From a virus: DNA of 64,000 bases. The notes beneath the pieces were generated by a model. That model worked only from the letters and a program-made list of their open reading frames with translations, did no database searches and was not told the DNA's origin. Location of the stretch: positions 57,011-121,010 of IMG/VR virus record IMGVR_UViG_3300027763_000032; one strand, 5' to 3'. Below, in pieces: positions 1,091-12,522 of this stretch. The translations under genes and the position numbers were made by a program. Position 1 is the first letter of the stretch, and each line of letters opens with the position of its first letter.

Positions 1091-1097
1091 ATAAATA
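1091..1097 (+). promoter_or_regulatory. late-type promoter core ATAAATA
   Basis: Intergenic, about 24 nt upstream of ATG 1121; resembles T4 late promoter TATAAATA and recurs upstream of other genes on both strands. Confidence 0.6.
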
Positions 1098-1120
1098 CTC
1101 TATAATAAGGTATTTGTGCT

Positions 1121-1465
1121 ATGAGAATGGATGAAGTTACAAACTCAGCGATCAATCTTGAAGAAGTAGACCTACACGACGATCTACACTTCTTCATGCA
1201 TAACGATCCTAATTTTTACCGCAAGGTGTTTTTTCCTATGATCAGTAAGGTCAAAGCACACATCAAAGCAGGTAATCGTTGTCACGACGGAGTTTTTCGT
1301 CCCTGTGTAGATAGAGCCGCAGAAGCTTACTGTAAAAAGTTTAATATTCCCGATAATGAAAAGTCAGTGTTTACTGATGTTGACCGCGACGAACTAGCCC
1401 GTAAGATTTTTGGGCAAGAGAAAGATCGCATTGAACAGGGTGACTATGATGGAGATGACAAATGA
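1121..1465 (+). CDS. hypothetical protein (first gene of late block)
   Basis: 114-aa ORF after late-type promoter. Confidence 0.75.
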   Translation: MRMDEVTNSAINLEEVDLHDDLHFFMHNDPNFYRKVFFPMISKVKAHIKAGNRCHDGVFRPCVDRAAEAYCKKFNIPDNEKSVFTDVDRDELARKIFGQEKDRIEQGDYDGDDK

Positions 1466-2223
1466 TTTTATTAGAAGGCGGAAATGTATTTGCCAACGCA
1501 ACTCCATTTGACCACAAAGATGTTCCTGCAATACTTAAAACTGTCAACGGAGCACTAGCCGGTACAGGTATTACTGCTATCCCCGTTGGTTCTGCGGCAA
1601 CTCCCAAGCCAGGTAAAACTAGCGGAGACATGGACGTTATTGTTGACGAACAGGCAGTACTAAACTACTTCAAAGCCAAAGATGCTAAGGCAGGCCGTAA
1701 GGCACTAAACGATTATATCAGCAGTAAAGGATTAGAAACTGCACAAAGCGGTATTAATGTACACGTAAATGTTCCAGTCGGTGGAGAGTTTCATCAAGTA
1801 GATGTTATGGTATCAGCTAATGCTGAGAAAGTATCTAAGTTTCACACACATGCTATTCCTGATAACAGTCCGTACAAGGGTGTTAACAAACAACTGATGA
1901 TGGCTATACTAGCCAAACAGAAAAACTACATGTGGTCTGCATGGCAAGGATTGTTTAGTCGTACACCAGAAGGTAAGAAAGGCGACCTAGTTGCCGACAA
2001 TTTAGATGATGTTGCTAAACACCTATTTGGACCAAATGGTAGTGCTAAAGATTTAGGTAGTGTAGAAAGTATACTTGCGGCTTTGCCAAAGCAAGAAGCA
2101 GATGCATTGTTAGCAAGAGCTAAAGAAGATGCCAACTGGAAAGAAGTGCCAGTCCGTCAAGAAAGTTATCGCATTGGAACTAACGAATGGTTCCGTCATA
2201 TGTTGGATAAGGTACAGCTATGA
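1462..2223 (+). CDS. Pol-beta-superfamily nucleotidyltransferase-like protein
   Basis: VGSAATPKPGKTSGDMDVIV fits hG[GS]x(9-13)DhD; third acidic residue in HQVDVMV. Confidence 0.7.
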   Translation: MILLEGGNVFANATPFDHKDVPAILKTVNGALAGTGITAIPVGSAATPKPGKTSGDMDVIVDEQAVLNYFKAKDAKAGRKALNDYISSKGLETAQSGINVHVNVPVGGEFHQVDVMVSANAEKVSKFHTHAIPDNSPYKGVNKQLMMAILAKQKNYMWSAWQGLFSRTPEGKKGDLVADNLDDVAKHLFGPNGSAKDLGSVESILAALPKQEADALLARAKEDANWKEVPVRQESYRIGTNEWFRHMLDKVQL

Positions 2224-3362
2224 GATTAAGACAACTGTTTAAAGAAGCAGAAGCACCTAAACAGTTAGGTCGCGCATTTAACCACCTAGAAGATCTAGTT
2301 TTCTTTCATGGTACTAAAGGCACACTTGAAGCACTAAGTCATATTAAAGACTTTGCTAGTCAAGAAGGAGCCAATAGTATTCGCATGAAGTGGGACGGCA
2401 ATCCACAAATATATTGGGGTCGTGCAGAAGCCAACGGTCCTTTAATACTTGCAGGACATAATGGCTGGAGCAAAGGTGCTGTAACAGATAGTCCAGAAGC
2501 GGTACAAGATTTTATTGCCAACAAGTCGGGAAGTCCCAAGACTCCTGAAGAGAAAGAAGCAAGAGATAAATTTGCCAGCGAGTTTGCTAGTCTGTATCCC
2601 CTGTTTGACAAAGCTACTCCACGAGACTTTGTAGGCTTTGTGTATGCAGATGGTTTGTTCTTACAACAACCTCCAGCAGATAAAGAAGGCGTATATAACT
2701 TTTGTCCCAATAATAAAAGTCAAACGTGTTATCATGTAAGATCCAATAGCGGATTGGGTAAGCGTATTGCTAATGCACAAGTAATGGTAGTGGGACATGC
2801 GTTCTTTCCAGAGTTTGGTATGCCAGATGCTAGTCAAAAGCCTATCAGTGACTTCAGTCAGTTCAATAGTAATCCACAGTTAATTGTTCTTGGCCCAATA
2901 TACAACAGCAAGCCTGTTAAAATTGATACTACAGCAGTCGATGCCATTGAGCAGTTTGCACAGGCGCACGGTGGTCAAATGGATGGATTCCTACAAGGGC
3001 TTCCGGGACTAAGCGACCTAAAAAATATTATCTACACTTATGTAAATCAAACTGCCAAAGCAAAACAGTTAGACAGTCTAAGCCCAAAACATTTTACAGA
3101 TTGGTTAGCTGTATCAAAGACTAGTCCAGGAAAACAACAAAAGATTAATGATCTAGTTGCGGCAAATCCTACTGCACTGGCAACTATCTTTACATTGGTA
3201 AAAAGAATACAGGCAATGAAAGACGACATCATTGATCAAATTGAAGGCGAACAGGGTGAGATATGGGACACAAATGGCGAAGGTCGTGTTCGATATGCAG
3301 ATCAAAATAAACAGCTAGGTCACGTTAAACTTGTACCTCGCAAGCGTTGGACGCCGACCTAA
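2220..3362 (+). CDS. ATP-dependent ligase/RNA-ligase-fold protein (DUF6267-like)
   Basis: MKWDGNP (KxDG motif I), YADGLF (motif III-like), GEGRV (EGxV motif IV), VKLV (motif V-like); N-terminus MRLRQLFKE. Confidence 0.6.
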   Translation: MRLRQLFKEAEAPKQLGRAFNHLEDLVFFHGTKGTLEALSHIKDFASQEGANSIRMKWDGNPQIYWGRAEANGPLILAGHNGWSKGAVTDSPEAVQDFIANKSGSPKTPEEKEARDKFASEFASLYPLFDKATPRDFVGFVYADGLFLQQPPADKEGVYNFCPNNKSQTCYHVRSNSGLGKRIANAQVMVVGHAFFPEFGMPDASQKPISDFSQFNSNPQLIVLGPIYNSKPVKIDTTAVDAIEQFAQAHGGQMDGFLQGLPGLSDLKNIIYTYVNQTAKAKQLDSLSPKHFTDWLAVSKTSPGKQQKINDLVAANPTALATIFTLVKRIQAMKDDIIDQIEGEQGEIWDTNGEGRVRYADQNKQLGHVKLVPRKRWTPT

Positions 3363-3371
3363 GGACTTATT

Positions 3372-4643
3372 ATGAAACTAAGACAGCTATTTGAAGGACT
3401 AGGACAAGAAGTTGCCATTATATTTGGTCGCTTTAATCCCCCGCACAAGGGACATAGAGCCGCATGGGAACTTGCCGCTAAGAGTCCCGTTTGGTATGTA
3501 GGCACAAACGAAAGCACAGTAGGTCCAAAGGATCCATTACCATATGGTATTAAAGTAGAAGCAATGACTGCCATATGGCCAGAAGTTGAAGGACATATTA
3601 TTGCAGAAACAAGTTGGCTAACACTAGCTAGTCTAGTATACGAAAAGCACGGTGATGTTACACTACTATGCCTAACTGATGAAGATTGGGTTACTAAAAC
3701 TATTGTACAGTACAATGGTAAAGAAGGTGCCCACGGTTTCTATAATTTTAAAACTATTAAACAAAAACCAACACCACGTTTAAGTTCAGCTACTGCCCTA
3801 CGTGATGCAGTTTCTAAAGGTGATCGTGAAGCCTTTGCCACTGCCGCAGGTGTAGATGCTGATACGCCTGTTGCTGGTAAACCGTTCTTTGATCTAGTAG
3901 CAGAATACCTGCTACCATACTCTAATGCACCTGTAAAGAAAACTGCAAAGAAAAAAGTTGCGGCTCCTGTGGAAGGCATAGATGAAGGCTGGAAGGATTT
4001 GGCAATAGGTGGAGCAATGGCTTTGGGCGCTCTAGGTGCAGGACACTCTCAGGCAGCAGACTTGAGTCATTTTAACACACAATATCTACAACAAGTGGTC
4101 AAAGGAGAACATCCTCGTCCAATGGTTAGCATTGATGATGCTAAACAAGAATTACAGGATAGAGCAAACGGTAAGAAACAAGCTACAGCTCCTGCTAGAA
4201 TTGATTTACCGAGCGGATCGAATGGTTTTAGTAAAGAATATCTACAAAAGGCGGCGGACCCAGATCGATTTGGTAGATACATGATTAGCGTAGAAAAGGC
4301 GCAAGAACTATTGAATAAAATAAACAAAGGTACGACAGAAGGTATTATGAGTTTTTTAAAAAGCGAGCCTCCTAAAAAGAAATGGAATCCTGCTAAAGAT
4401 TCAATAGTAGTTAGTAACAAAAAAGACGACGAAGCATGGATCAAACTTTTATTAGATAAACATCGTAGAGGTATCGAACTTACAGATCGTGAATGGAATT
4501 CAATCCAGCAATGGAAACTAAAACGTAATATGAAAGGTGAGGATGCGGCAGGTGTAGGTATTATTACTAAACAGAATTCAACTGTGGATGTAAACAAAGG
4601 TACGCCCCGTAAAAATCTCAAAGCATTTAGACTAGTAAAATGA
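3372..4643 (+). CDS. HIGH-motif (cytidylyltransferase/NMNAT-like) nucleotidyltransferase fused to C-terminal accessory modules
   Basis: IIFGRFNPPHKGH (HxGH), KDPLPY, SSATALR; N-terminus MKLRQLFE. Confidence 0.8.
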   Translation: MKLRQLFEGLGQEVAIIFGRFNPPHKGHRAAWELAAKSPVWYVGTNESTVGPKDPLPYGIKVEAMTAIWPEVEGHIIAETSWLTLASLVYEKHGDVTLLCLTDEDWVTKTIVQYNGKEGAHGFYNFKTIKQKPTPRLSSATALRDAVSKGDREAFATAAGVDADTPVAGKPFFDLVAEYLLPYSNAPVKKTAKKKVAAPVEGIDEGWKDLAIGGAMALGALGAGHSQAADLSHFNTQYLQQVVKGEHPRPMVSIDDAKQELQDRANGKKQATAPARIDLPSGSNGFSKEYLQKAADPDRFGRYMISVEKAQELLNKINKGTTEGIMSFLKSEPPKKKWNPAKDSIVVSNKKDDEAWIKLLLDKHRRGIELTDREWNSIQQWKLKRNMKGEDAAGVGIITKQNSTVDVNKGTPRKNLKAFRLVK

Positions 4644-4927
4644 AACAATATAAGATAACAAGTCAAGACTTAAATCAGGATAGCCCTGATGATTGTTATC
4701 TTGCGCCTGATGATCCTGTACACGAACTAAAAATATTATCAGGCATGGGCGGACTAGGTGCCGAAGCTAGACTACATGAGTATCGTGCTAATCAAGGCAG
4801 TAACATTAGTGTTACCGGCAACAGTAAGGGCGAGCTAATGAAGAAGCATAACATACAGCCAGGAACTCAAGAATGGTTTAAGCTATGGTTTAGTCTGCCT
4901 TATCTCACAGGGGAGCCACCTGTATGA
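4640..4927 (+). CDS. hypothetical protein
   Basis: 95-aa ORF with ATGA overlaps at both ends. Confidence 0.75.
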   Translation: MKQYKITSQDLNQDSPDDCYLAPDDPVHELKILSGMGGLGAEARLHEYRANQGSNISVTGNSKGELMKKHNIQPGTQEWFKLWFSLPYLTGEPPV

Positions 4928-5058
4928 GATTACGCGAACTGTTTGAACATAAAAAAGGCATTCGTGCCAAAAAATATAACAAAAAACCTAAGAAGTTTAT
5001 TGAACCTATTAAACCTAAAAAAGCGGAGTCGCCGCAAACTACTAAGGAACCATCATGA
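4924..5058 (+). CDS. small basic protein, 44 aa (absent from ORF track)
   Basis: MRLRELFEHKKGIRAKKYNKKPKKFIEPIKPKKAESPQTTKEPS*; ATGA coupling on both sides; same N-terminal motif as neighbours. Confidence 0.7.
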   Translation: MRLRELFEHKKGIRAKKYNKKPKKFIEPIKPKKAESPQTTKEPS

Positions 5059-5387
5059 AAATACGTGAACTATTAGAAGCAAAAACTAAAAAAGCCGAAG
5101 CACCTAAGCCTCGTAACTTTGTAGCTAAAAATGCTATTAATACAGGCGCTGGCGCACACAAAGACAAAAAGAAAGCCGCAAAGCAAGGTGATGCTAAACA
5201 CAAGAATAAAGACTATGAAATGGCTGAATCTGCTAGTGCAGGTGCAACTAGTGCGGCTAACGTAGGAGTTGGTCCAGTATACCCTAACAAAACAGGTAAA
5301 ACTAATAAGAATAAAGACGGTACAACAAAAAATGCGCTGGATGTTAAGGGCACTAACTTACTCACCGGTGGCAGCTTAAAACGCTAA
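5055..5387 (+). CDS. basic, probable head-internal protein
   Basis: MKIRELLE start, Lys/Ala-rich, internal AESASAGATS module. Confidence 0.65.
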   Translation: MKIRELLEAKTKKAEAPKPRNFVAKNAINTGAGAHKDKKKAAKQGDAKHKNKDYEMAESASAGATSAANVGVGPVYPNKTGKTNKNKDGTTKNALDVKGTNLLTGGSLKR

Positions 5388-5413
5388 ATATATAAAGATA
5401 ACGGAGTTACCTC

Positions 5414-6472
5414 ATGCAACCACAAGTACAAATGCAAGGACCAGATGACGAAGGCGGAATGGCCCGTGCTGACCTATATAGAGCTGCCAAGCACTCTATG
5501 AAACTGTTTCAAATGATTCAGAATAACCAACAGTTAGAAGGTTGGGTACAAGCAAAGATTACTAAAGCGGCAGATTACTTAGACAGTATCTACCACTATA
5601 TGGAATATCAAGTAAAGTTTGGACAAGGCGCTGTTGCGTCAAGTGTTGATGACATTACTGGAGATATGGAAACTGCCGCTCGTGCCGCAGAAGAAGCCGA
5701 TGACGAAAAAACTGATATGGAAGAATCTATGAACTACGAACAAAAACTACAGGCACTATTAGAAAGTGCCGTTAAGAAAGCCAAGAAAGATTATGATGGC
5801 GATGGCAAAGTTGAAACAAACAAAGATGAAGTTTGGGGATCACGTGCCAAGGCTGCGGCAAAAGCAGGCAAGCCATTCAAAGAAGGTTTCCCAACTGTCG
5901 ATGATGCAAAGAAAAATGCACAGGGTACAGCAGGCATGAAGCCAGGCGAAAAGAAAAAGTCTAGCACTGGTGGTACTATTGAAAAGACAGCAACAGGTAT
6001 CAAACATACTGCTGGTAAGAACTACAGCGGCAAAGGTGCTGAAGCTGATAAGAAAGTCAAAGAAGAAAAGTTTGATCCATTAAAGCACGTTAAGAATCCT
6101 ACTCCAGGTGAGAAGAAAGCCGCTAAAGATGTCAAGCGCGGTAGCTATGCAGATCGTGCGGCAATGTTAAAGTCAGCTGAAAGAGACGGACGTTTAAAAG
6201 AAGCTGATGCTAAATGTAATCACACTGAAAAGGGCGAGAAGTGTCCAGTACACGGTCTAAAAGAATGTGGTAGTACAATGGCATACGAAGCGGCAAAACC
6301 AAGTGCAGGCATGAGTAAAGGTGCTAAGTCAGCATTAGTTAAAAAAGCTAAAGCTGGCGGTGACGTTGGCAAGCCAGGCAAGAGTTTTGACAAAGTAGCC
6401 AAGTCAGCAGGTGGTGGTGAGAAAGGCAAACGTATTGCCGCTGCCGCTATGTGGAAGAACGCTGCCAAATAA
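5414..6472 (+). CDS. modular Lys/Glu-rich protein, probable prohead core/internal protein
   Basis: CTAAATA motif at 5384-5390 and GGAG SD upstream; modules separated by xxE sites; CNH..CPVHGLKEC Zn-like motif. Confidence 0.6.
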   Translation: MQPQVQMQGPDDEGGMARADLYRAAKHSMKLFQMIQNNQQLEGWVQAKITKAADYLDSIYHYMEYQVKFGQGAVASSVDDITGDMETAARAAEEADDEKTDMEESMNYEQKLQALLESAVKKAKKDYDGDGKVETNKDEVWGSRAKAAAKAGKPFKEGFPTVDDAKKNAQGTAGMKPGEKKKSSTGGTIEKTATGIKHTAGKNYSGKGAEADKKVKEEKFDPLKHVKNPTPGEKKAAKDVKRGSYADRAAMLKSAERDGRLKEADAKCNHTEKGEKCPVHGLKECGSTMAYEAAKPSAGMSKGAKSALVKKAKAGGDVGKPGKSFDKVAKSAGGGEKGKRIAAAAMWKNAAK

Positions 6473-6485
6473 GGAATAGACAAAA

Positions 6486-7574
6486 ATGGATATGAAGAAA
6501 ATATTACAAGCCTTTGACGGGGCAACTACAAAGAAGCCTGTTCAAGGTGCTAATGATATGAAGAAGTTTGTATCTATTGTTCGAGAAAGTACGAATCCTT
6601 ACACACCTGCACAAGAATCTGTTATTACAAGTTTTGAAGAAGGTTCAGTAGGCGGTGATGCTAATGCATTTTTATTGGCTGCGGATACTATTCAAGACGA
6701 AGTAATGGCACAGGTCAACAAGATTAAAATCAACGCAGACGAAGCTAGTCTACGTGACATGATGGAAAAGTTTAATGCTTTCATGACTGCTTACCACAAC
6801 GTCGGTAAAGGCATTCTACAACCAGACATGTTTAATGACAGCATGGGAGAAAGCGCAGAAGAACAAGTTGATGAAGCAGGTTCATATCGTCGTCCAGGTA
6901 GCTCATCTGCATACGATAGAGATTATGCATCAAGTGTAAGCGGCATGGGCAAGAAGGATTCATTAGCCTATCAACAAGACGGCGGAGCCAACGACGAAGG
7001 TTGGGGTAAAGAGCCGTATCAAGCACCACAAGACAAACCTAAAATGACCGGCATGTTCTTTTATAATGTGCAACCTGGACAAGAACAAGAGGCGGCCAGC
7101 TTGGGCGTTAAGAAAACCAAGAGCGGTAAATGGGCAAAGACCAAGTATAATACAAGTGGTCGATCATTTAATATGCAAAAAGATCTAGCTGACAAAGCAT
7201 TTGGTGTTGGCAAGTGGTGGGCTCCTAAAAACGAAAGCATTGAAGAAGGTACAGAAAATCGTTGTATGCAATGCGGTATGACAAGTTGCAAGTGTCCAGG
7301 TGATAGTTGCAAGTGTAAACCTATTGCAGGATGGGTACCAGGCAAGGGTTTTAAGAAAGCCATGGAAGAAGCTAAAGAAAAAACAATGAGTCGTGCGGCT
7401 AAAGGCAACGAAAAGTATGGCAAGGACGGAATGAAAGAGCTTGCTAAAGCAGGTCGTGAAGGTGCTAGCGAAGAACAGTTAGATAAAATCCGTGACAAGC
7501 ATGACAAATATAGCGAAGGCCTAAGTTTTAAAGATTATGTAAACTTAGCAGAAGCTAAGAAAGGTCTAGAATAA
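6486..7574 (+). CDS. modular Lys/Glu-rich protein, probable internal head protein
   Basis: AAGGA SD; modules after DE/EE sites; CMQCGMTSCKCPGDSCKC cysteine cluster. Confidence 0.6.
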   Translation: MDMKKILQAFDGATTKKPVQGANDMKKFVSIVRESTNPYTPAQESVITSFEEGSVGGDANAFLLAADTIQDEVMAQVNKIKINADEASLRDMMEKFNAFMTAYHNVGKGILQPDMFNDSMGESAEEQVDEAGSYRRPGSSSAYDRDYASSVSGMGKKDSLAYQQDGGANDEGWGKEPYQAPQDKPKMTGMFFYNVQPGQEQEAASLGVKKTKSGKWAKTKYNTSGRSFNMQKDLADKAFGVGKWWAPKNESIEEGTENRCMQCGMTSCKCPGDSCKCKPIAGWVPGKGFKKAMEEAKEKTMSRAAKGNEKYGKDGMKELAKAGREGASEEQLDKIRDKHDKYSEGLSFKDYVNLAEAKKGLE

Positions 7575-7963
7575 TGAGACTATTAGCATTAGTATTAGCA
7601 GTTGCTTTAACTGGCTGTGCAAGTGTTAAAGATATGATTCCTAGTTTTCAGGATCCTAATCAGTCAGCTAAAATTATTGATGTGCGTCAAAGTGTAGCAC
7701 AGTTAGATTGCAAACAACCACACGCACCGCAAGTTAAACAGATTAAAGATAACCTACAATGGTTTGAACTATATAGTACTAGCAAAGGTTCTAGACAAAA
7801 CGATGTATTACGTTTAATCAAGCCAATGCAAGAGACTGTAGATGATTTTTACAAGCGCAGTACAAGCGAAAAGCAAGGCAGTGATGCATATTGCGAGATT
7901 AAGAAAAAGTTAATGTCTACACAAGCTGAACGTGCGGCTAGTGCAGTACTAGGGAGATTCTAA
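7574..7963 (+). CDS. lipoprotein
   Basis: MRLLALVLAVALTG-C signal peptide II with lipobox. Confidence 0.75.
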   Translation: MRLLALVLAVALTGCASVKDMIPSFQDPNQSAKIIDVRQSVAQLDCKQPHAPQVKQIKDNLQWFELYSTSKGSRQNDVLRLIKPMQETVDDFYKRSTSEKQGSDAYCEIKKKLMSTQAERAASAVLGRF

Positions 7964-8196
7964 TGAACGAACTTATTCAATGTATTAACTCAGGTAAAGG
8001 TTGGGCCGCTGAACGTGCTAACACAGCATATCAGATTGGTCAAGCACTACAAGCTGGACAGATTAATCCAAGCGAAGCAAAAGAATTATTAGAGGACCTA
8101 GTTAGAACAGATAGATTAGATGCTGAAGCAGACGATATGGCTCTTAAGGCCATGTTAGTAACAGGCATCTATGCAGTAATACAAATATGTGGATAA
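7963..8196 (+). CDS. small hypothetical protein
   Basis: 77-aa ORF coupled by TAATG overlap. Confidence 0.7.
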   Translation: MNELIQCINSGKGWAAERANTAYQIGQALQAGQINPSEAKELLEDLVRTDRLDAEADDMALKAMLVTGIYAVIQICG

Positions 8197-8632
8197 TATG
8201 GAACAGTTAATCAACGCATTAAAAATAGCATTTGCTAGCGAATATGCATTTGCACTAAAGGCACAAAACTTTCATTGGAATACAGAGGGTGCAGACTTCT
8301 ACGAATTTCACTTGTTGTTTGAAACAATATATGACGAAGTATACGGAAGCATAGATGCATTCGCAGAAAATATTCGTAAGAGCGGAGGTTATACTCCGGC
8401 AAGTCTAGCTAAGTTTAGTATGCTAACTGTAGTTGAAGATGAAAATGCTGTTCCAGATGCTAGAGCCATGACTGCTGAACTATTAGCAGACAGCGATAAA
8501 TTAGCACAGATGATGGCAATGGTTTACAAGATGGCTGATGCGGCCGGAGAATACGGGCTAAGTAATTTTCTTGCAGAGCGTCAAGATGCACATCGCAAGC
8601 ACAGTTGGTTTTTACGTTCTACACTAAAATGA
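8189..8632 (+). CDS. dps: Dps-family ferritin-like DNA protection protein
   Basis: NFHWNTEGADFYEFHLLFE..YD...DAFAENIR ferroxidase residues; C-terminal HRKHSWFLRS. Confidence 0.92.
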   Translation: MDNMEQLINALKIAFASEYAFALKAQNFHWNTEGADFYEFHLLFETIYDEVYGSIDAFAENIRKSGGYTPASLAKFSMLTVVEDENAVPDARAMTAELLADSDKLAQMMAMVYKMADAAGEYGLSNFLAERQDAHRKHSWFLRSTLK

Positions 8633-8706
8633 ACCCAGATCAATATCCAGTATACCCAGAAGATGATGGCTATGACCGTTTCCGCAATCCTTACAGCCCT
8701 GTTTGA
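8629..8706 (+). CDS. 25-aa microprotein (absent from ORF track)
   Basis: MNPDQYPVYPEDDGYDRFRNPYSPV*; ATG overlaps the dps stop. Confidence 0.45.
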   Translation: MNPDQYPVYPEDDGYDRFRNPYSPV

Positions 8707-8710
8707 CAAT

Positions 8711-8794
8711 ATGATTGAAGGACTTGCTCGCTTTGGTTGGGGCATGGTCGGAGTAGCGTATCCTATTATAGAAAATGATTATGAGAGCAAATGA
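8711..8794 (+). CDS. 27-aa microprotein (absent from ORF track)
   Basis: MIEGLARFGWGMVGVAYPIIENDYESK*; fills the gap to the next gene; no clear SD. Confidence 0.3.
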   Translation: MIEGLARFGWGMVGVAYPIIENDYESK

Positions 8795-9503
8795 ATTTAT
8801 AACTGAATCGTGGAGTCAAAAATACAAAAAGAGTATTAACTGCTCACACCCTAAAGGCTTTAGTCAAAAGGCACACTGTGCCGGCAAGAAGAAACACAAC
8901 GAAAGTGTTGAAATGGAAATGGTCTTCCCTGATTGCAATATGTGTGAATCCCATGGCAATGTTATGGAAATTAAGAAAGGTGCTAAAGACAGCAACGGCT
9001 TTACTAAATGTTGGTCTGGATATCATGCCGCAGGTACAAAACAAGGTAAGAACGGTTCAGTACGTAACTGTGTAAAGAATGAAAGCACAGAGCTAGAAGA
9101 AGAGTTCGATCTTATTGAATCAATTATATCCGACCTAGCTTTACGCAATGGTGTTAACGAAGATGCTGTCTGGGAAGATTTAGAAACACTCACAGACGAT
9201 GAGCTATATGTGTTTGCTGTTACACAACCAGTTAATGAAGATTGGCAAAAAGTCAACAAACATGATAAGACTTCAGGTATGAGTCAAAAGGCTGTTAATG
9301 CCTATCGCAGAGAAAACCCAGGTAGTAAATTAAAAACTGCTGTAACGACTAAACCTAGTAAACTAAAAAGAGGTAGCAAAAGTGCCAAACGTCGATCAAG
9401 CTATTGTTCTAGATCAGCTGGTCAAAAACGTATGCATCATATAGATTGTTCAAAGACTCCAGATAAAGCAATCTGTGCGGCACGTCGTCGTTGGAACTGT
9501 TAA
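8781..9503 (+). CDS. modular basic Cys-rich protein, probable internal head protein
   Basis: MRANEFITE start (second ATG of track ORF); modules CSHPKGFSQKAHC, KCWSGY..NCVK, YCSRS..RRRWNC. Confidence 0.65.
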   Translation: MRANEFITESWSQKYKKSINCSHPKGFSQKAHCAGKKKHNESVEMEMVFPDCNMCESHGNVMEIKKGAKDSNGFTKCWSGYHAAGTKQGKNGSVRNCVKNESTELEEEFDLIESIISDLALRNGVNEDAVWEDLETLTDDELYVFAVTQPVNEDWQKVNKHDKTSGMSQKAVNAYRRENPGSKLKTAVTTKPSKLKRGSKSAKRRSSYCSRSAGQKRMHHIDCSKTPDKAICAARRRWNC

Positions 9504-10264
9504 TGCGAGCAAAAGAGTTCCAGCCAAAAAAACTAGTTATCTTTGATATAGATGACACGCTGGTTCATACACAAACTAAAGTCCACGTGGTCAAAGACGG
9601 ACAGGTAACTAAAGAACTTAACAGTCATGAGTTTACACACTATAAACTACAACCGGGAGAACAGTTTGATTTTGAGAACTTTCGTAACGCACATGACTTT
9701 TTCCACAAAAGTAAACCGATCATTCCAATGATGAATCAACTCAAGCAAGACATCGCTACTGGTAACAAAGTAGTAATGGTAACTGCTCGTGCTGACTTTG
9801 ATGATAAAGAGCTATTCTTAGATACATTCCGCAAGTATGGTGTAGACATGGCAAAAGTTCATGTTTATCGTGCAGGCAATATGACTGGCAAGATTCAAAC
9901 AGAAGAAAAGAAAAAAATTATTATACGTAACTTGTTAGACAAGGACATTTATACTAAAGCCATAATGTATGATGATGCTGTTCCTAACTTAGAATCATTT
10001 GTAGAACTTAAGAAAGAATATCCAAAGACCAAGTTCTATGCCTGGCATGTTAGCTTAGAGGGCAAAGCAAGCGAATATCAACGTACCGATGAAAATTTTG
10101 CTGATGGAAAGCACCCAGAAGATAAAGGTGATGCTAAACGTCACGGCATTAACACTAAAGCATCAGTAAGCAGTTTACGTAAAACTGCTAAACAAGGTGG
10201 CCGTAAAGGTCAACTAGCACACTGGTTAGCTAACATGAAAGCAGGGCGAGCAAAGAAACATTAA
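9503..10264 (+). CDS. HAD-superfamily phosphatase (PseT/RNA-repair-like) with basic C-terminal module
   Basis: LVIFDIDDTLV (DxD), MVTAR, MYDDAVPNL; real start probably the TAATG-coupled ATG 9503 giving MRAKEF. Confidence 0.8.
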   Translation: MRAKEFQPKKLVIFDIDDTLVHTQTKVHVVKDGQVTKELNSHEFTHYKLQPGEQFDFENFRNAHDFFHKSKPIIPMMNQLKQDIATGNKVVMVTARADFDDKELFLDTFRKYGVDMAKVHVYRAGNMTGKIQTEEKKKIIIRNLLDKDIYTKAIMYDDAVPNLESFVELKKEYPKTKFYAWHVSLEGKASEYQRTDENFADGKHPEDKGDAKRHGINTKASVSSLRKTAKQGGRKGQLAHWLANMKAGRAKKH

Positions 10265-10267
10265 AGA

Positions 10268-10374
10268 ACACACTACCTTAGGACCAGTACTCGTTACTGA
10301 CTCAAGTGTGCGCAGGCTGCTGGCGCAGGACGGCCCGATTCGCTACCGGGAATCCTGGAAGTGAGCATTTTTTT
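10268..10374 (+). ncRNA. candidate structured RNA (unassigned family)
   Basis: GC-rich intergenic tract with several nested stems (CACACU/AGUGUG, CAGUA/UACUG, GCGC/GCGC, CAGGA/UCCUG, CCCG/CGGG) followed by a T7 run. Confidence 0.5.
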
Positions 10375-10378
10375 ACGG

Positions 10379-10385
10379 ATAAATA
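10379..10385 (+). promoter_or_regulatory. late-type promoter core (G)ATAAATA
   Basis: Immediately upstream of desaturase ATG 10390. Confidence 0.55.
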
Positions 10386-10389
10386 TTAG

Positions 10390-11094
10390 ATGATTATATT
10401 ATATACGCTAATAGTAACACATATTACAATTGTCTGCGTTACCCTGTTCCTACATAGGGGACAAGCACATAGAGGATTTGTGTTTAATCCCCTGCTAGAA
10501 CACTTTATGAGATTCTGGCTATGGCTAACAACTGGCATGGTTACTAAACAATGGGTGGCTATACACCGCAAGCATCACAGATTTAGTGATGAGTCTGGTG
10601 ATCCGCATAGTCCTCATGTATATGGTATATGGCGAGTACTATTTAAAGGTGCAGGATTATATCATTCTGCAAGCAAAGACGCTGAAATGATCCAACAGTA
10701 CGGTGTAGGTACACCTGATGATTGGGTCGAACGCAACGTGTACACCCAACACAGTCGCCTGGGCATTCTCCTAATGTTAGTCATAGACTTATTGTTATTT
10801 GGGCCGTTAGGCATTGTAGTGTGGGGTGTACAAATGATATGGATTCCATTCTGGGCCGCTGGTGTTATTAACGGTGTCGCTCATTGGATAGGATATCGCA
10901 ATGGCACTACTAAAGATCAAAGCCGCAATATCAGTCCTTGGGGTATTATAATAGGCGGTGAAGAACTGCATAACAACCATCATCTCGAGCCGGCAAACCC
11001 TAAACTAAGCAGACGTTGGTTTGAGTTTGACTTGGGCTGGATGTGGTTTACTGTATTTAAAACACTTAGACTAGCTAAACTTAGATCAGTTTAA
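10390..11094 (+). CDS. membrane fatty-acid (acyl-lipid/acyl-CoA) desaturase
   Basis: Three His boxes HRGQAH, HRKHH, HNNHH plus hydrophobic helices. Confidence 0.92.
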   Translation: MIILYTLIVTHITIVCVTLFLHRGQAHRGFVFNPLLEHFMRFWLWLTTGMVTKQWVAIHRKHHRFSDESGDPHSPHVYGIWRVLFKGAGLYHSASKDAEMIQQYGVGTPDDWVERNVYTQHSRLGILLMLVIDLLLFGPLGIVVWGVQMIWIPFWAAGVINGVAHWIGYRNGTTKDQSRNISPWGIIIGGEELHNNHHLEPANPKLSRRWFEFDLGWMWFTVFKTLRLAKLRSV

Positions 11095-11762
11095 AATTTA
11101 TAGTTAAAACGATCAATTAATGGTTTTGAAGAGTCAGCAACTACAATTCTTAAATGATCTGTGTATAATGTTTGATAGCTAACTAAACGATTTTCAACAT
11201 TTTTATGTTGGGCTGTATTTAATAACAGATCAATCTCACTATTTAAATCACCCGACTCTACTAACATCTGTCGAAGGTCAGCGGCAATATTCTCAGTAGT
11301 TCCTATCTTAGTTGCGGTAGCAATAAAATTACTGCTAACTACATCATACAAACTTCCGCTAGTAGATAACCACATTTCCCAAAACGGTGATTGTGAAGTA
11401 TTCCTTACTAAATCCGAGGACTTAGATAATATTGACACTTTCTTTTTATACATGTCTGTAGGACAGCATAAAGTTTCTGTAAATTCAGCAAACGACGGAG
11501 TATTGCCAAATGCACGGATTAGGGGGTCGATAAAATTGTCTGCTGGATTATAAATTTCCGACCCATAAATTAAATAATGATACAGACTGTTATACCATTG
11601 CCATGGGTTCCTAACAAACAAATATACGTTAGGACGATGAAAATCATTGGATGGTAGCCTATGTCCAAAATCCTCAATTGTTATTGATTTCAAAACTTCT
11701 CTAACCCAGTTCCCACCAGTCTTAGGCATGTGCAGATATAGCGCATTATTAGTAACTATCAT
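11091..11762 (-). CDS. sulfotransferase-family protein
   Basis: LYLHMPKTGGNWV (5'-PSB-like HxPKTGG) and FVRNPWQWYNSLY (3'-PB-like RxP...S.Y); likely start MIVTNN at 11762. Confidence 0.75.
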   Translation of the reverse strand: MIVTNNALYLHMPKTGGNWVREVLKSITIEDFGHRLPSNDFHRPNVYLFVRNPWQWYNSLYHYLIYGSEIYNPADNFIDPLIRAFGNTPSFAEFTETLCCPTDMYKKKVSILSKSSDLVRNTSQSPFWEMWLSTSGSLYDVVSSNFIATATKIGTTENIAADLRQMLVESGDLNSEIDLLLNTAQHKNVENRLVSYQTLYTDHLRIVVADSSKPLIDRFNYKF

Positions 11763-11769
11763 ATAGAAA

Positions 11770-11786
11770 TATTTATATGATAAATA
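11770..11786. promoter_or_regulatory. back-to-back divergent ATAAATA late-type promoter cores
   Basis: TATTTAT at 11770-11776 (minus strand, towards the sulfotransferase) and ATAAATA at 11780-11786 (plus strand, towards ATG 11792). Confidence 0.55.
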
Positions 11787-11791
11787 ATAGC

Positions 11792-12175
11792 ATGAGAGCA
11801 AAAGAATTTATTGTTGAGCAGGGCAAGGGCGGAATGAAGAAAATTGATCCCGCCTTTAAAGCCGCGATGAAAAATGCCATGACCATTCCTTCAATGAATC
11901 AAAGTACAGGTTCAGCGTACTTAGGGTGGAGAATGAACATTGCTCTTGCAGGTGCTCCTGATTATCCAACCAAGATGGAAGCAGATAACTGGATTGGTGG
12001 AGATCCTTTAATTAGTACATATACAGAAGAAGAATATGAAATGGTCAAGGCCGCATCATTAGCAGTAGGCGGAGGCTCTATTCAAAATTGGTCTGGCAAA
12101 CGCAGTGAAGAACTGCCAGATACTAATAAAACAAGCACAGTGGCTAAACCAAAACGTAACAAATACGGCGTATGA
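11792..12175 (+). CDS. hypothetical protein with MRAKEFIVE leader
   Basis: ATG 11792 directly after the promoter core; leader shared with neighbours. Confidence 0.7.
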   Translation: MRAKEFIVEQGKGGMKKIDPAFKAAMKNAMTIPSMNQSTGSAYLGWRMNIALAGAPDYPTKMEADNWIGGDPLISTYTEEEYEMVKAASLAVGGGSIQNWSGKRSEELPDTNKTSTVAKPKRNKYGV

Positions 12176-12486
12176 AAATAAACGAACTATTAACAGAAGC
12201 ACCCATTGACTTTGATCCTAGTGAACCAATGAATCCCTTAGTACATAGTCATCAGGGAGCCAATCCAGGCAAGCTACAATATCGTATGCTACGTGCGGCA
12301 GGACAGTTAAAGGATCTTGCCAAAAGAGCAGAACACGCTAGTCCTTTAGAATGGGAAATGATTTCCAAAAACTTTTCAGAGCTAGCAATGAACGTTGAAC
12401 AGATTAGACATGGTCTAGAAGAACTTGCCGCACAACGTAAAAAGGGTGGCGTCCGTTCAAGAGGCATTGATCCAAACATTGGATAA
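12172..12486 (+). CDS. hypothetical protein with MKINELLTE leader
   Basis: 104-aa ORF, ATGA coupled. Confidence 0.7.
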   Translation: MKINELLTEAPIDFDPSEPMNPLVHSHQGANPGKLQYRMLRAAGQLKDLAKRAEHASPLEWEMISKNFSELAMNVEQIRHGLEELAAQRKKGGVRSRGIDPNIG

Positions 12487-12493
12487 AATATAG

Positions 12494-12522
12494 TTGACAC
12501 AGTCAACACAAGGCTATATAAT
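12494..12522 (+). promoter_or_regulatory. sigma70 consensus promoter
   Basis: TTGACA-17 nt-TATAAT, a perfect match; AAGGAG SD downstream. Confidence 0.85.

What the first reader, a model, noticed from the sequence alone, without database searches (positions are those of the whole stretch)
1121..12486. Array of about ten genes sharing a capsid-targeting-like N-terminal peptide
Seen: MRLRQLFKE (2220), MKLRQLFE (3372), MRLRELFE (4924), MKIRELLE (5055), MRANEFITE (8781), MRAKEF (9503), MRAKEFIVE (11792), MKINELLTE (12172), plus weaker MILLE (1462) and MRMDE (1121). The pattern was not noticed in the replication genes. Established: T4 internal proteins IPII/IPIII use the leader MKTYQEFIAE for head packaging, and the gp21 protease removes it after Glu. 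Inference: this block is a cargo cassette of enzymes and basic proteins that are packaged and injected with the DNA, larger and more enzymatic than T4's.
Basis: partly seen in the sequence, partly recalled or inferred. Interest (0 to 1): 0.78.

Follow-up and report, generated by a model that had tools for sequence, protein, structure and literature searches.

The report
T4-like capsid-targeting leader on phage genes
Eight otherwise unrelated genes of this uncultured lake jumbo phage begin with the same 8-9-residue peptide, which closely matches the tags that phage T4 uses to load proteins into its head and then cuts off, so these proteins are probably packed into the capsid; no virion data exist.

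Summary
Eight + strand ORFs (window 2220-12172) start with M-[RK]-[ALI]-[RKN]-[EQ]-[LF]-[FIL], mostly with Glu at position 8 or 9. The motif occurs nowhere else in six frames of the 121-kb fragment, against 0.1 expected. It is a protein-level N-terminal add-on: the bodies are unrelated, codons vary synonymously, and homologous enzymes occur with and without it.

The same kind of pattern, run on T4 as a control, finds the starts of ipII, ipIII, alt and gene 24, all cut by gp21. The window's three sub-types mirror them. Near-identical relatives carry a T4-type head module with an S77 (gp21-like) protease, and a T4-late-type promoter box precedes the array.

Best reading (about 0.7): a capsid-targeting propeptide removed by the head protease. 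Tagged proteins include an RNA-ligase-like enzyme, a HIGH nucleotidyltransferase, a HAD phosphatase and basic proteins.

The "cassette" claim is only partly right. About 8-9 of 21 genes are tagged. MILLE (1462) is domain core, not a tag. MRMDE (1121) is a degenerate tag. Packaging and injection are untested.

This scan has noted the same and similar leaders on other phage DNA.

The parts
1091..1098 (+). T4-late-type promoter box ATAAATAC, 30 nt before the ATG of gene 1121 (first gene of the array)
   Evidence: The same box lies 25-34 nt upstream of giant virion-type and tail/baseplate-region genes in G000 and in the syntenic G001, and 12 nt upstream of a small gene in the gp67 position next to portal. 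Its role as a late promoter is inferred.
1121..1465 (+). 114-aa acidic protein with a degenerate leader (MRMDE)
   Evidence: Distant orthologues start with canonical leaders such as MKIKDLFEN and MKIQDLFEN. No family match.
2220..3362 (+). Leader MRLRQLFKE (2220-2246) plus a DUF6267 covalent nucleotidyltransferase with an RNA-ligase-like fold (KWDG motif)
   Evidence: Pfam DUF6267, 8.5e-16. AlphaFold2 pLDDT 94.8, with the leader at pLDDT 56 and outside the fold. Best structural matches are Rnl2-type RNA ligases, Z 6.5-7.4. K57, W58, D59 and G60 are nearly invariant.
3372..4643 (+). Leader MKLRQLFE (3372-3395) plus a HIGH-motif (GRFNPPHKGH) nucleotidyltransferase with a long C-terminal extension
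   Evidence: PHROG cytidyltransferase, 7e-13. Weak Pfam CTP_transf_like match. The S-WAM2 and L240 homologues lack the leader.
4924..5058 (+). Leader MRLRELFE plus a 36-residue lysine-rich tail (pI 10.3)
5055..5387 (+). Leader MKIRELLE plus a basic 110-aa protein (pI 10.1)
   Evidence: phrog_1359, 1.5e-8.
8781..9503 (+). Leader MRANEFITE, then a basic WSxKYKxSINC..GKKK module, then a Cys-rich region and DUF6321
   Evidence: Pfam DUF6321, 3e-9. The module follows the leader in several unrelated proteins.
9503..10264 (+). Leader variant MRAKEF(QPK) without a terminal Glu, fused directly to a HAD phosphatase (DIDDT) with a basic tail
   Evidence: phrog_415 'polynucleotide kinase', 4.5e-11. Weak Pfam HAD IIIB match. 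Orthologues start MRAKDFIKN or MRAQEFIVE.
11792..12175 (+). Leader MRAKEFIVE plus a 118-aa body. This family is the commonest carrier of this leader type and is often found in tandem copies
   Evidence: 118 members in 74 of 120 IMG/VR loci, of which 111 carry a leader. Alignment A2. The fold is poorly predicted, pLDDT 70.
12172..12486 (+). Leader MKINELLTE plus a 95-aa body of unknown function
   Evidence: The leader is nearly the same as the T4 gp24 propeptide MAKINELLRE.
12494..12522 (+). Perfect sigma-70-type promoter (TTGACA-17-TATAAT) that marks the end of the array, in front of the dsbA-like gene and DNA polymerase
   Evidence: 12 of 12 matches.

Best explanation
The shared peptide is a capsid-targeting propeptide of the T4 type, one residue shorter than T4's.

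Proposed steps (all inferred unless marked as shown):
1. The genes are transcribed late, from a T4-late-like promoter.
2. The N-terminal amphipathic tag (basic residue, hydrophobic, basic/polar, acidic, two hydrophobics, x, Glu) docks the new protein onto the scaffolding core of the assembling prohead.
3. The phage's gp21-type (Peptidase S77) protease then cuts after the Glu at position 8 or 9, which has a hydrophobic residue at P3, as in T4's L/I-x-E rule.
4. The mature proteins stay inside the head and leave with the DNA at the next infection.

Shown here: the motif, its strict N-terminal position and its protein-level conservation; its add-on nature; its match to the N-termini of T4 ipII, ipIII, alt and gene 24; a T4-type head module in near-identical relatives; and the late-type promoter box.

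Not shown: docking, cleavage, residence in the virion and ejection.

The tagged proteins are an RNA-ligase-like nucleotidyltransferase, a HIGH nucleotidyltransferase, a HAD phosphatase, two lysine-rich proteins and three proteins of unknown function. They would act before any phage gene is expressed, perhaps in nucleic-acid repair or counter-defence. That last point is speculative.
For: 1. Motif statistics: 8 observed against 0.1 expected, all at ORF starts on one strand. In relatives, 192 hits on the gene strand and 0 on the other. Glu at positions 8/9 was not forced by the search.
2. Protein-level signal: the second codon positions are the most conserved (partly forced by the amino-acid classes of the search motif), hydrophobic classes are kept through different codons, and upstream there is only an ordinary Shine-Dalgarno sequence.
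3. Not paralogy: the bodies share no similarity.
4. Add-on: the S-WAM2 homologues of genes 2220 and 3372 start directly at the domain. The syntenic relative L240 has truly leaderless copies, with a stop 3 codons upstream, while two other genes in the same locus keep the tag. Of 86 DUF6267 representatives, 26 have the canonical leader, about 39 have other N-extensions (many leader-like) and 21 have none. The leader lies outside the AlphaFold2 fold.
5. T4 control: the pattern hits the starts of ipII and ipIII (MKTYQEFIAE), alt (MELITELFDE), gene 24 (MAKINELLRE) and 61.1, plus an internal gp22 site. Compare MRAKEFIVE, MRLRELFE and MKINELLTE here. The published CTS has targeting residues at 4 and 7 and processing residues at 8 and 10 (PMC9026906).
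6. Head module: G001 (syntenic, 95% identical DUF6267) and G002 have an S77 protease at 92-93 bits. In G001 it is flanked by portal, a putative scaffold and the major capsid protein, and it is 32% identical to T4 gp21. The complete genomes G006 and G007 carry both the leader and the protease. The putative scaffold and the capsid protein start MLDALKQLFEN and MSELLES.
7. Modular insertion: in long-form orthologues a basic module sits exactly between the leader's Glu and 'AEAPKQL', and itself ends in VNE.
8. Late-type box at 1091.
9. Six of the eight tagged proteins are basic, pI 9.1-10.3.
Against: There are no virion proteomics, no cleavage data and no cultured relative with this leader.

The protease and putative scaffold are not on this 121-kb fragment, which CheckV rates 33% complete. 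They are inferred from relatives.

Gene 9503 lacks the terminal Glu.

In the same three-gene enzyme group, 1462 is untagged here, and close relatives work without tags on 2220 and 3372. Packaging is therefore not essential for these enzymes.

One tagged protein in G006 carries a Tat export signal right after the tag, which is odd for a head-internal protein.

The T4 gp24 example shows that such a propeptide can also sit on a shell protein, so a tag does not prove that a protein is injected cargo.

The leader conservation seen in alignment A2 is partly circular, because those loci were found with the leader pattern.
Confidence: 0.7

Rival explanations
1. The peptide is only a gp21-type processing or assembly propeptide on head-associated proteins, such as shell, vertex or core parts. 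It is not an address label for injected cargo. The proteins are cleaved in the prohead but are structural or are degraded.
For: T4 gene 24, a vertex protein, carries MAKINELLRE, almost the same as the window's MKINELLTE. An internal site in the T4 scaffold gp22 also matches. The putative scaffold and the capsid protein of G001 begin with related motifs.
Against: Three tagged proteins are soluble-enzyme folds: ligase-like, HIGH nucleotidyltransferase and HAD. Leaderless versions exist in phages, which is not what capsid parts would show. Tagged small basic proteins resemble the T4 internal proteins.
Confidence: 0.12
2. The peptide is a recognition tag (N-degron or adaptor site) for the phage-encoded Clp machinery, which would time the destruction or unfolding of these proteins. 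A ClpA-like ATPase and DnaJ lie directly upstream, and ClpP is elsewhere in the genome.
For: The ClpA-like gene ends at window 454, just before the array. ClpP is present in G000, G001, G007 and G008. The same DnaJ-ClpA-array order is seen in L240. Known ClpX N-motifs are also Met-basic-hydrophobic (from my own knowledge, not tested here).
Against: The complete genome G006 has at least 7 strong leaders and the S77 protease but no ClpP. T4 uses near-identical tags and, to my knowledge (not checked here), has no Clp genes. A conserved Glu with a hydrophobic residue at P3 fits a Glu-specific head protease, not a degron.
Confidence: 0.06
3. The peptide is a docking or recognition tag for some other common partner, such as a modifying enzyme or another virion or cell structure.
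For: The 11792 family often lies beside tail-fibre-like genes. One tagged protein has a Tat signal.
Against: No partner gene co-occurs consistently. The commonest untagged neighbour family is in only 39 of 120 loci. In G006 the tagged genes lie in five different neighbourhoods. The match to T4's gp21-cut N-termini is specific.
Confidence: 0.07
4. The conservation lies in the mRNA, for example a translational operator (like a T4 RegA site) or an initiation enhancer spanning the start codon.
For: The leader codons are A-rich (AGA, AAA, GCA, GAA) and many starts overlap the preceding stop codon.
Against: Second codon positions are the most conserved (partly forced by the amino-acid classes of the search motif) and third positions the least. 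Position 6 uses TTT, CTA, TTA, CTG, ATA and TTC, all hydrophobic. Nothing upstream is conserved beyond a Shine-Dalgarno sequence.
Confidence: 0.03

Closest known systems
Capsid targeting sequence (CTS) of phage T4 internal proteins IPII and IPIII (MKTYQEFIAE), removed by the gp21 prohead protease (Mullaney and Black 1996, as reviewed in PMC9026906 and PMC3012670)
   Same: It sits at the extreme N-terminus, is about 10 residues long, and has the core E-F-I-x-E ending in Glu with a hydrophobic residue at P3. It is placed on unrelated, mostly basic proteins. A T4-type protease, putative scaffold and capsid module is present in relatives. The genes lie in small arrays or are dispersed.
   Different: It is one residue shorter (MRAKEFIVE). 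Position 2 is Arg or Lys and position 4 is basic or polar instead of Tyr. There are three interchangeable sub-types. It is attached to enzymes of 250-420 aa, with an optional basic WSxKYK module behind it. The phages are uncultured freshwater jumbo phages, and nothing has been shown experimentally.
N-terminal propeptides of T4 Alt (MELITELFDE) and of the vertex protein gp24 (MAKINELLRE), both cut by gp21
   Same: The window's sub-types MRLRELFE / MRLRQLFKE and MKINELLTE / MKIRELLE match these two almost residue for residue. Alt sets the precedent for a packaged, injected enzyme.
   Different: gp24 is a shell protein, not cargo. Alt is also trimmed at its C-terminus. No homology exists between the mature parts.
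Long propeptides of ejection proteins in phiKZ-like and SPN3US giant phages (PMC5694885)
   Same: Many head-internal proteins are cut by a gp21-related protease after Glu.
   Different: Those propeptides are 80-130 residues long with an A/S-x-E motif and no shared short N-terminal tag. Those phages are from a different lineage.

Membership tests
T4-type CTS / gp21 propeptide system | A short (about 10 aa) peptide at the extreme N-terminus, shared by proteins with unrelated mature parts | tested here: met
   There are 8 leaders of 8-9 aa at ORF starts. The bodies are unrelated. Conservation ends at residue 9.
T4-type CTS / gp21 propeptide system | Sequence resembles the T4 tags: acidic residue, F/L, I/F/L, x, E | tested here: met
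   The pattern ATG-N(6-15)-GAR-YTN-HTN-NNN-GAR finds the starts of T4 ipII, ipIII, alt, 24 and 61.1. The window's leaders fit the same core.
T4-type CTS / gp21 propeptide system | A cleavage site after Glu with L/I (hydrophobic) at P3 | tested here: met
   7 of 8 leaders end in LFKE, LFE, LLE, FITE, FIVE or LLTE. 9503 (MRAKEFQPK) does not. Actual cleavage was not tested.
T4-type CTS / gp21 propeptide system | A gp21-family (Peptidase S77) prohead protease in the same phage | tested here: inconclusive
   It is absent from this 121-kb fragment, which is 33% complete. It is present in the syntenic G001 and in G002 and in the complete genomes G006 and G007 that carry the leader. The G001 protease is 32% identical to T4 gp21, E = 2e-20.
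T4-type CTS / gp21 propeptide system | A T4-type scaffolding core and capsid module (portal, core proteins, scaffold, gp23-type capsid protein) | tested here: inconclusive
   Not on this fragment. In G001 the order is portal (phrog_213), a small 78-aa gene, a 277-aa gene, the protease (phrog_207), a scaffold-position gene (phrog_10922, which has no annotated function) and the major head protein (phrog_138).
T4-type CTS / gp21 propeptide system | Late expression together with head genes | tested here: inconclusive
   The ATAAATAC box at window 1091 is the same box found 25-34 nt before giant virion-type and tail/baseplate-region genes. No expression data.
T4-type CTS / gp21 propeptide system | Tagged proteins are found in virions, lack the tag there, and enter the host with the DNA | not testable with these tools
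   The phage is uncultured, and no cultured phage in the collection carries this leader.
Clp N-degron | The tag depends on a Clp protease encoded by the phage | tested here: not met
   The complete genome G006 has the leaders but no ClpP match. Use of the host's Clp is not excluded.

The most novel reading that the evidence does not exclude
This clade of freshwater jumbo phages uses a portable 9-residue address label to load a whole nucleic-acid-repair or nucleotide-handling kit into the capsid. The kit would be an RNA-ligase-like enzyme, a HIGH nucleotidyltransferase and a HAD/PNK-like phosphatase; in some relatives the Pol-beta-like partner is also tagged. It would be delivered with the DNA to neutralise host RNA-cleaving or NAD-depleting defences before any phage gene is read. 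The label is gained and lost gene by gene, so each phage tunes its 'injectome'.
Probability: 0.2. Interest if true: 0.8.

Novelty: new variant of a known kind. Interest (0 to 1): 0.55.

Why it matters
If the tag works as in T4, protein injection by T4-like jumbo phages goes well beyond a few small anti-restriction proteins. It would be a modular delivery system for enzymes, and its cargo could be read from sequence alone in hundreds of uncultured genomes.

The tag gives a simple rule for predicting which proteins act at time zero of infection. It is also a compact candidate label for loading foreign proteins into capsids.

The natural with-tag and without-tag variants of the same enzymes give ready-made controls for testing what pre-loading buys the phage.

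Tried and rejected
- **Chance:** rejected.
- **Recent gene duplication:** rejected. There is no similarity beyond the leader.
- **RNA-level element:** rejected as the main cause.
- **TATAAATA as the late promoter:** only two sites, so it is not the general box. ATAAATAC fits better.
- **Cultured relatives with proteomes:** Phosso, Atu_ph07 and PA5oct have the 9-aa motif only at control level. The looser T4-type pattern gives a few candidate tags there, which I did not follow up.
- **Homologues of the tagged proteins in cultured phages:** megablast of the region gave nothing and tblastn of the 11792 protein gave nothing. The 8781 protein matches cyanophage and pelagiphage proteins only in its C-terminal modules. 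In S-SCSM2R that part lies inside an 815-aa protein, so it says nothing about the tag.
- **PDB sequence searches:** 2220, 3372 and 9503 gave nothing useful. Foldseek on the 2220 model gave no significant match; only VIA-align gave a consistent ligase signal.
- **The 11792 protein:** the Atlas search gave no lead and its AlphaFold2 model is too weak to search with.
- **A fixed partner gene near tagged genes:** none was found.
Full report
**What is there.** The window is the second half of a 121,010-bp IMG/VR virus record that CheckV rates 33% complete. Its DNA polymerase is closest to those of T4-related jumbo phages: Phosso 52%, Atu_ph07 47%, and Rak2-like phages.

The motif M[RK][LIAVM][RKN][EQD][LFI][FLIQ] occurs exactly eight times in the six-frame translation of the whole record. 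All eight are on the + strand, at the start of ORFs of 44-423 codons, between window 2220 and 12172. Shuffled sequence gives 0.1 on average.

I fetched 80 related loci using the enzyme body of gene 2220, not the leader. A relaxed motif gives 192 hits there, all on the gene strand and none on the other, and all but three at ORF starts. In 131 distinct leaders the unconstrained positions 8 and 9 are Glu in 45 and 63 cases. Information content falls to background from position 10.

**What kind of signal it is.** The eight proteins share nothing beyond the leader, so this is not a paralogous family. Upstream there is only an ordinary ribosome-binding site. Within the leader the second codon positions are the most conserved, partly because the search motif fixes the amino-acid classes. 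The hydrophobic positions use many different codons (TTT, CTA, TTA, CTG, ATA, TTC). Together this points to selection on the peptide, not on the RNA.

The leader is an add-on.
- Cyanophage S-WAM2 has the same DUF6267 and cytidylyltransferase gene pair, and both genes start directly at the conserved domain.
- A syntenic relative of the same clade (L240) has truly leaderless copies of both enzymes, with an in-frame stop three codons upstream. Two other genes in that locus keep their tags.
- Nearly all of 120 close homologues of gene 2220 carry a leader.
- Of 86 representatives from clusters at 50% identity, 26 have a canonical leader, about 39 have other N-extensions (many leader-like), and 21 have none.
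- In the AlphaFold2 model of the 2220 protein (pLDDT 94.8), the first ten residues have pLDDT 56 and lie outside the fold.

**Comparison with T4, run as a control.** I ran the pattern ATG-N(6-15)-GAR-YTN-HTN-NNN-GAR on the T4 genome. It finds the starts of ipII and ipIII (MKTYQEFIAE), alt (MELITELFDE), gene 24 (MAKINELLRE) and 61.1 (MKTFKEFIKE), plus an internal site in the scaffold gene 22. IPII, IPIII, Alt and gp24 all lose an N-terminal propeptide to the gp21 protease, and gp22 is degraded by it. The IPIII peptide is the experimentally defined capsid-targeting sequence (PMC9026906, PMC5694885, PMC3012670).

The window's three sub-types mirror the T4 tags, with one residue fewer:

| Window leader | T4 counterpart |
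|---|---|
| MRAKEFIVE / MRANEFITE | IPII and IPIII, MKTYQEFIAE |
| MRLRELFE / MRLRQLFKE | Alt, MELITELFDE |
| MKINELLTE / MKIRELLE | gp24, MAKINELLRE |

Seven of the eight leaders end in a hydrophobic-x-Glu or hydrophobic-hydrophobic-Glu site of the kind gp21 cuts.

**The head machinery.** The fragment itself has no S77 protease. G001 is a 167.5-kb syntenic contig whose DUF6267 gene is 95% identical, and G002 is 100% identical. Each has one S77 protease, at 92-93 bits. In G001 the gene order is portal, a 78-aa gene beginning MILRELFYF, a 277-aa gene, the protease, a scaffold-position gene beginning MLDALKQLFEN, and the major capsid protein beginning MSELLES. The protease is 32% identical to T4 gp21. 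The leader's core motif is about four times commoner in these six head proteins than in the proteome, though the numbers are small.

An exact class-2 leader pattern occurs in at least 120 IMG/VR stretches. Two of them are complete genomes of 338 kb (G006) and 524 kb (G007), and both have the protease. In G006, 7 strong and about 5 weaker leaders sit on 404 N-termini, whereas the best of 1,806 internal Met sites scores far lower. The tagged genes are dispersed over five places, as the T4 tagged genes are.

**Timing.** The octamer ATAAATAC lies 25-34 nt upstream of the starts of giant virion-type genes and tail/baseplate-region genes. It lies 12 nt upstream of the small gene next to portal. It also lies 30 nt upstream of gene 1121, the first gene of the array. 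The array ends at a perfect sigma-70-type promoter (12494-12522), in front of a dsbA-like gene and the DNA polymerase. Late transcription of the array is therefore likely but inferred.

**The tagged proteins.**

| Gene | Description | Evidence |
|---|---|---|
| 2220 | Covalent nucleotidyltransferase with KWDG; closest folds are Rnl2-type RNA ligases (Z 6.5-7.4, a middling score, but the hits are consistent) | |
| 3372 | HIGH-motif nucleotidyltransferase | |
| 9503 | HAD phosphatase matching a 'polynucleotide kinase' PHROG | |
| 4924, 5055 | Lysine-rich, pI above 10 | |
| 8781 | Basic WSxKYKxSINC module plus DUF6321 | |
| 11792 | Commonest carrier family, often in tandem copies | |
| 12172 | Unknown function | |

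In long-form orthologues of 2220, the WSxKYK module is inserted exactly between the leader's Glu and the residues AEAPKQL, and it ends in VNE. Both forms would therefore give the same mature N-terminus if cut after Glu.

Only 8-9 of about 21 genes in 1121-12486 are tagged. The untagged ones include a lipoprotein, a ferritin/Dps-like protein, a fatty-acid desaturase, two large charged proteins and a minus-strand gene. MILLE at 1462 is the conserved start of the domain, not a tag. MRMDE at 1121 is a decayed tag, because its orthologues carry canonical ones.

**Rivals.**
- A Clp degron is suggested by the ClpA-like and DnaJ genes just upstream. However, the complete genome G006 has the leaders and no ClpP.
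- A fixed partner enzyme was not found.
- An RNA-level element does not fit the codon pattern.
- The main remaining uncertainty lies within the T4 analogy. The tag may mark head-associated or merely processed proteins, not injected cargo.
- One G006 protein has a Tat signal directly behind the tag. This is unexplained.

**Novelty and limits.** The mechanism proposed is the known T4 one. Four things are new: the shorter tag; its three interchangeable forms; its presence on sizeable enzymes; and its wide spread in uncultured freshwater jumbo phages, with gene-by-gene gain and loss. No cultured phage in the collection carries it, so there is no proteomic support. Other notes of this scan report the same leader set and similar CTS-like leaders on other phage DNA. 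Those notes are unchecked and I do not count them as evidence.

Noticed in passing
window 1462-4643; proteins P0122, P0168, P0170, P0171, P0199, P0210: The three neighbouring genes are found fused in various combinations in other genomes. They are the 1462 'LLEGGNVF' protein, the 2220 ligase-like DUF6267 and the 3372 HIGH nucleotidyltransferase. The fusions suggest that they work together.
   Followed up: partly
window 8808-8900; long-form DUF6267 orthologues such as P0030 and P0037: A mobile basic module of about 35 aa (WSxKYKxSINCxxPKGFSQxAHCxGRKK) follows the leader in several unrelated proteins. It also occurs inside larger proteins. Its function is unknown.
   Followed up: partly
G006 297068-297964 (L235:17068-17964): A leader-tagged 298-aa protein has a twin-arginine (Tat) export signal directly behind the tag, MRISEIIVE-APTDVSRRGFLKG.
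   Followed up: partly
T4 NC_000866 18966-19130 (gene 61.1): The 54-aa hypothetical protein gp61.1 of T4 begins MKTFKEFIKE, a CTS-like N-terminus that came up in the control scan.
   Followed up: no
window 6486-7574 and orthologues: A different N-terminal peptide, MDMK(K/Q)IL(Q/A)A(F/L)D, is strictly conserved in a 362-aa charged protein family while the following residues vary. It may be a second kind of tag.
   Followed up: no
alignment A2 (11792 family), residues 105-127 of the window protein: There is a conserved C-terminal S-x-E (Glu invariant) followed by TN..SPV..FKGYK. It could be a second Glu-specific cleavage site or a basic tail motif.
   Followed up: no
G001 90661-91221 versus window 9503-10264: In the close relative G001 the HAD domain is missing. 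The leader (MRAKEIFEN) is joined directly to the basic C-terminal tail, an example of modular remodelling behind the tag.
   Followed up: no
genome 54330-57464 and 6323-6916 (upstream of and partly within the window, to 454): The phage encodes DnaJ, a 750-aa ClpA/ClpB-like ATPase and ClpP. The complete genome G007 has two ClpP copies and G006 has none.
   Followed up: partly
window 7574-7963, 8189-8632, 10390-11094: Untagged auxiliary genes sit inside the array: a lipoprotein (MRLLALVLAVALTGC), a ferritin/Dps-like protein (Pfam Ferritin, 1.3e-21) and a fatty-acid desaturase (4.9e-14).
   Followed up: no
window 10264-10390: A 125-nt G+C-rich intergenic stretch ends in a T-run after gene 9503. 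It may be a terminator or a structured RNA, and the simple terminator scan did not list it.
   Followed up: no
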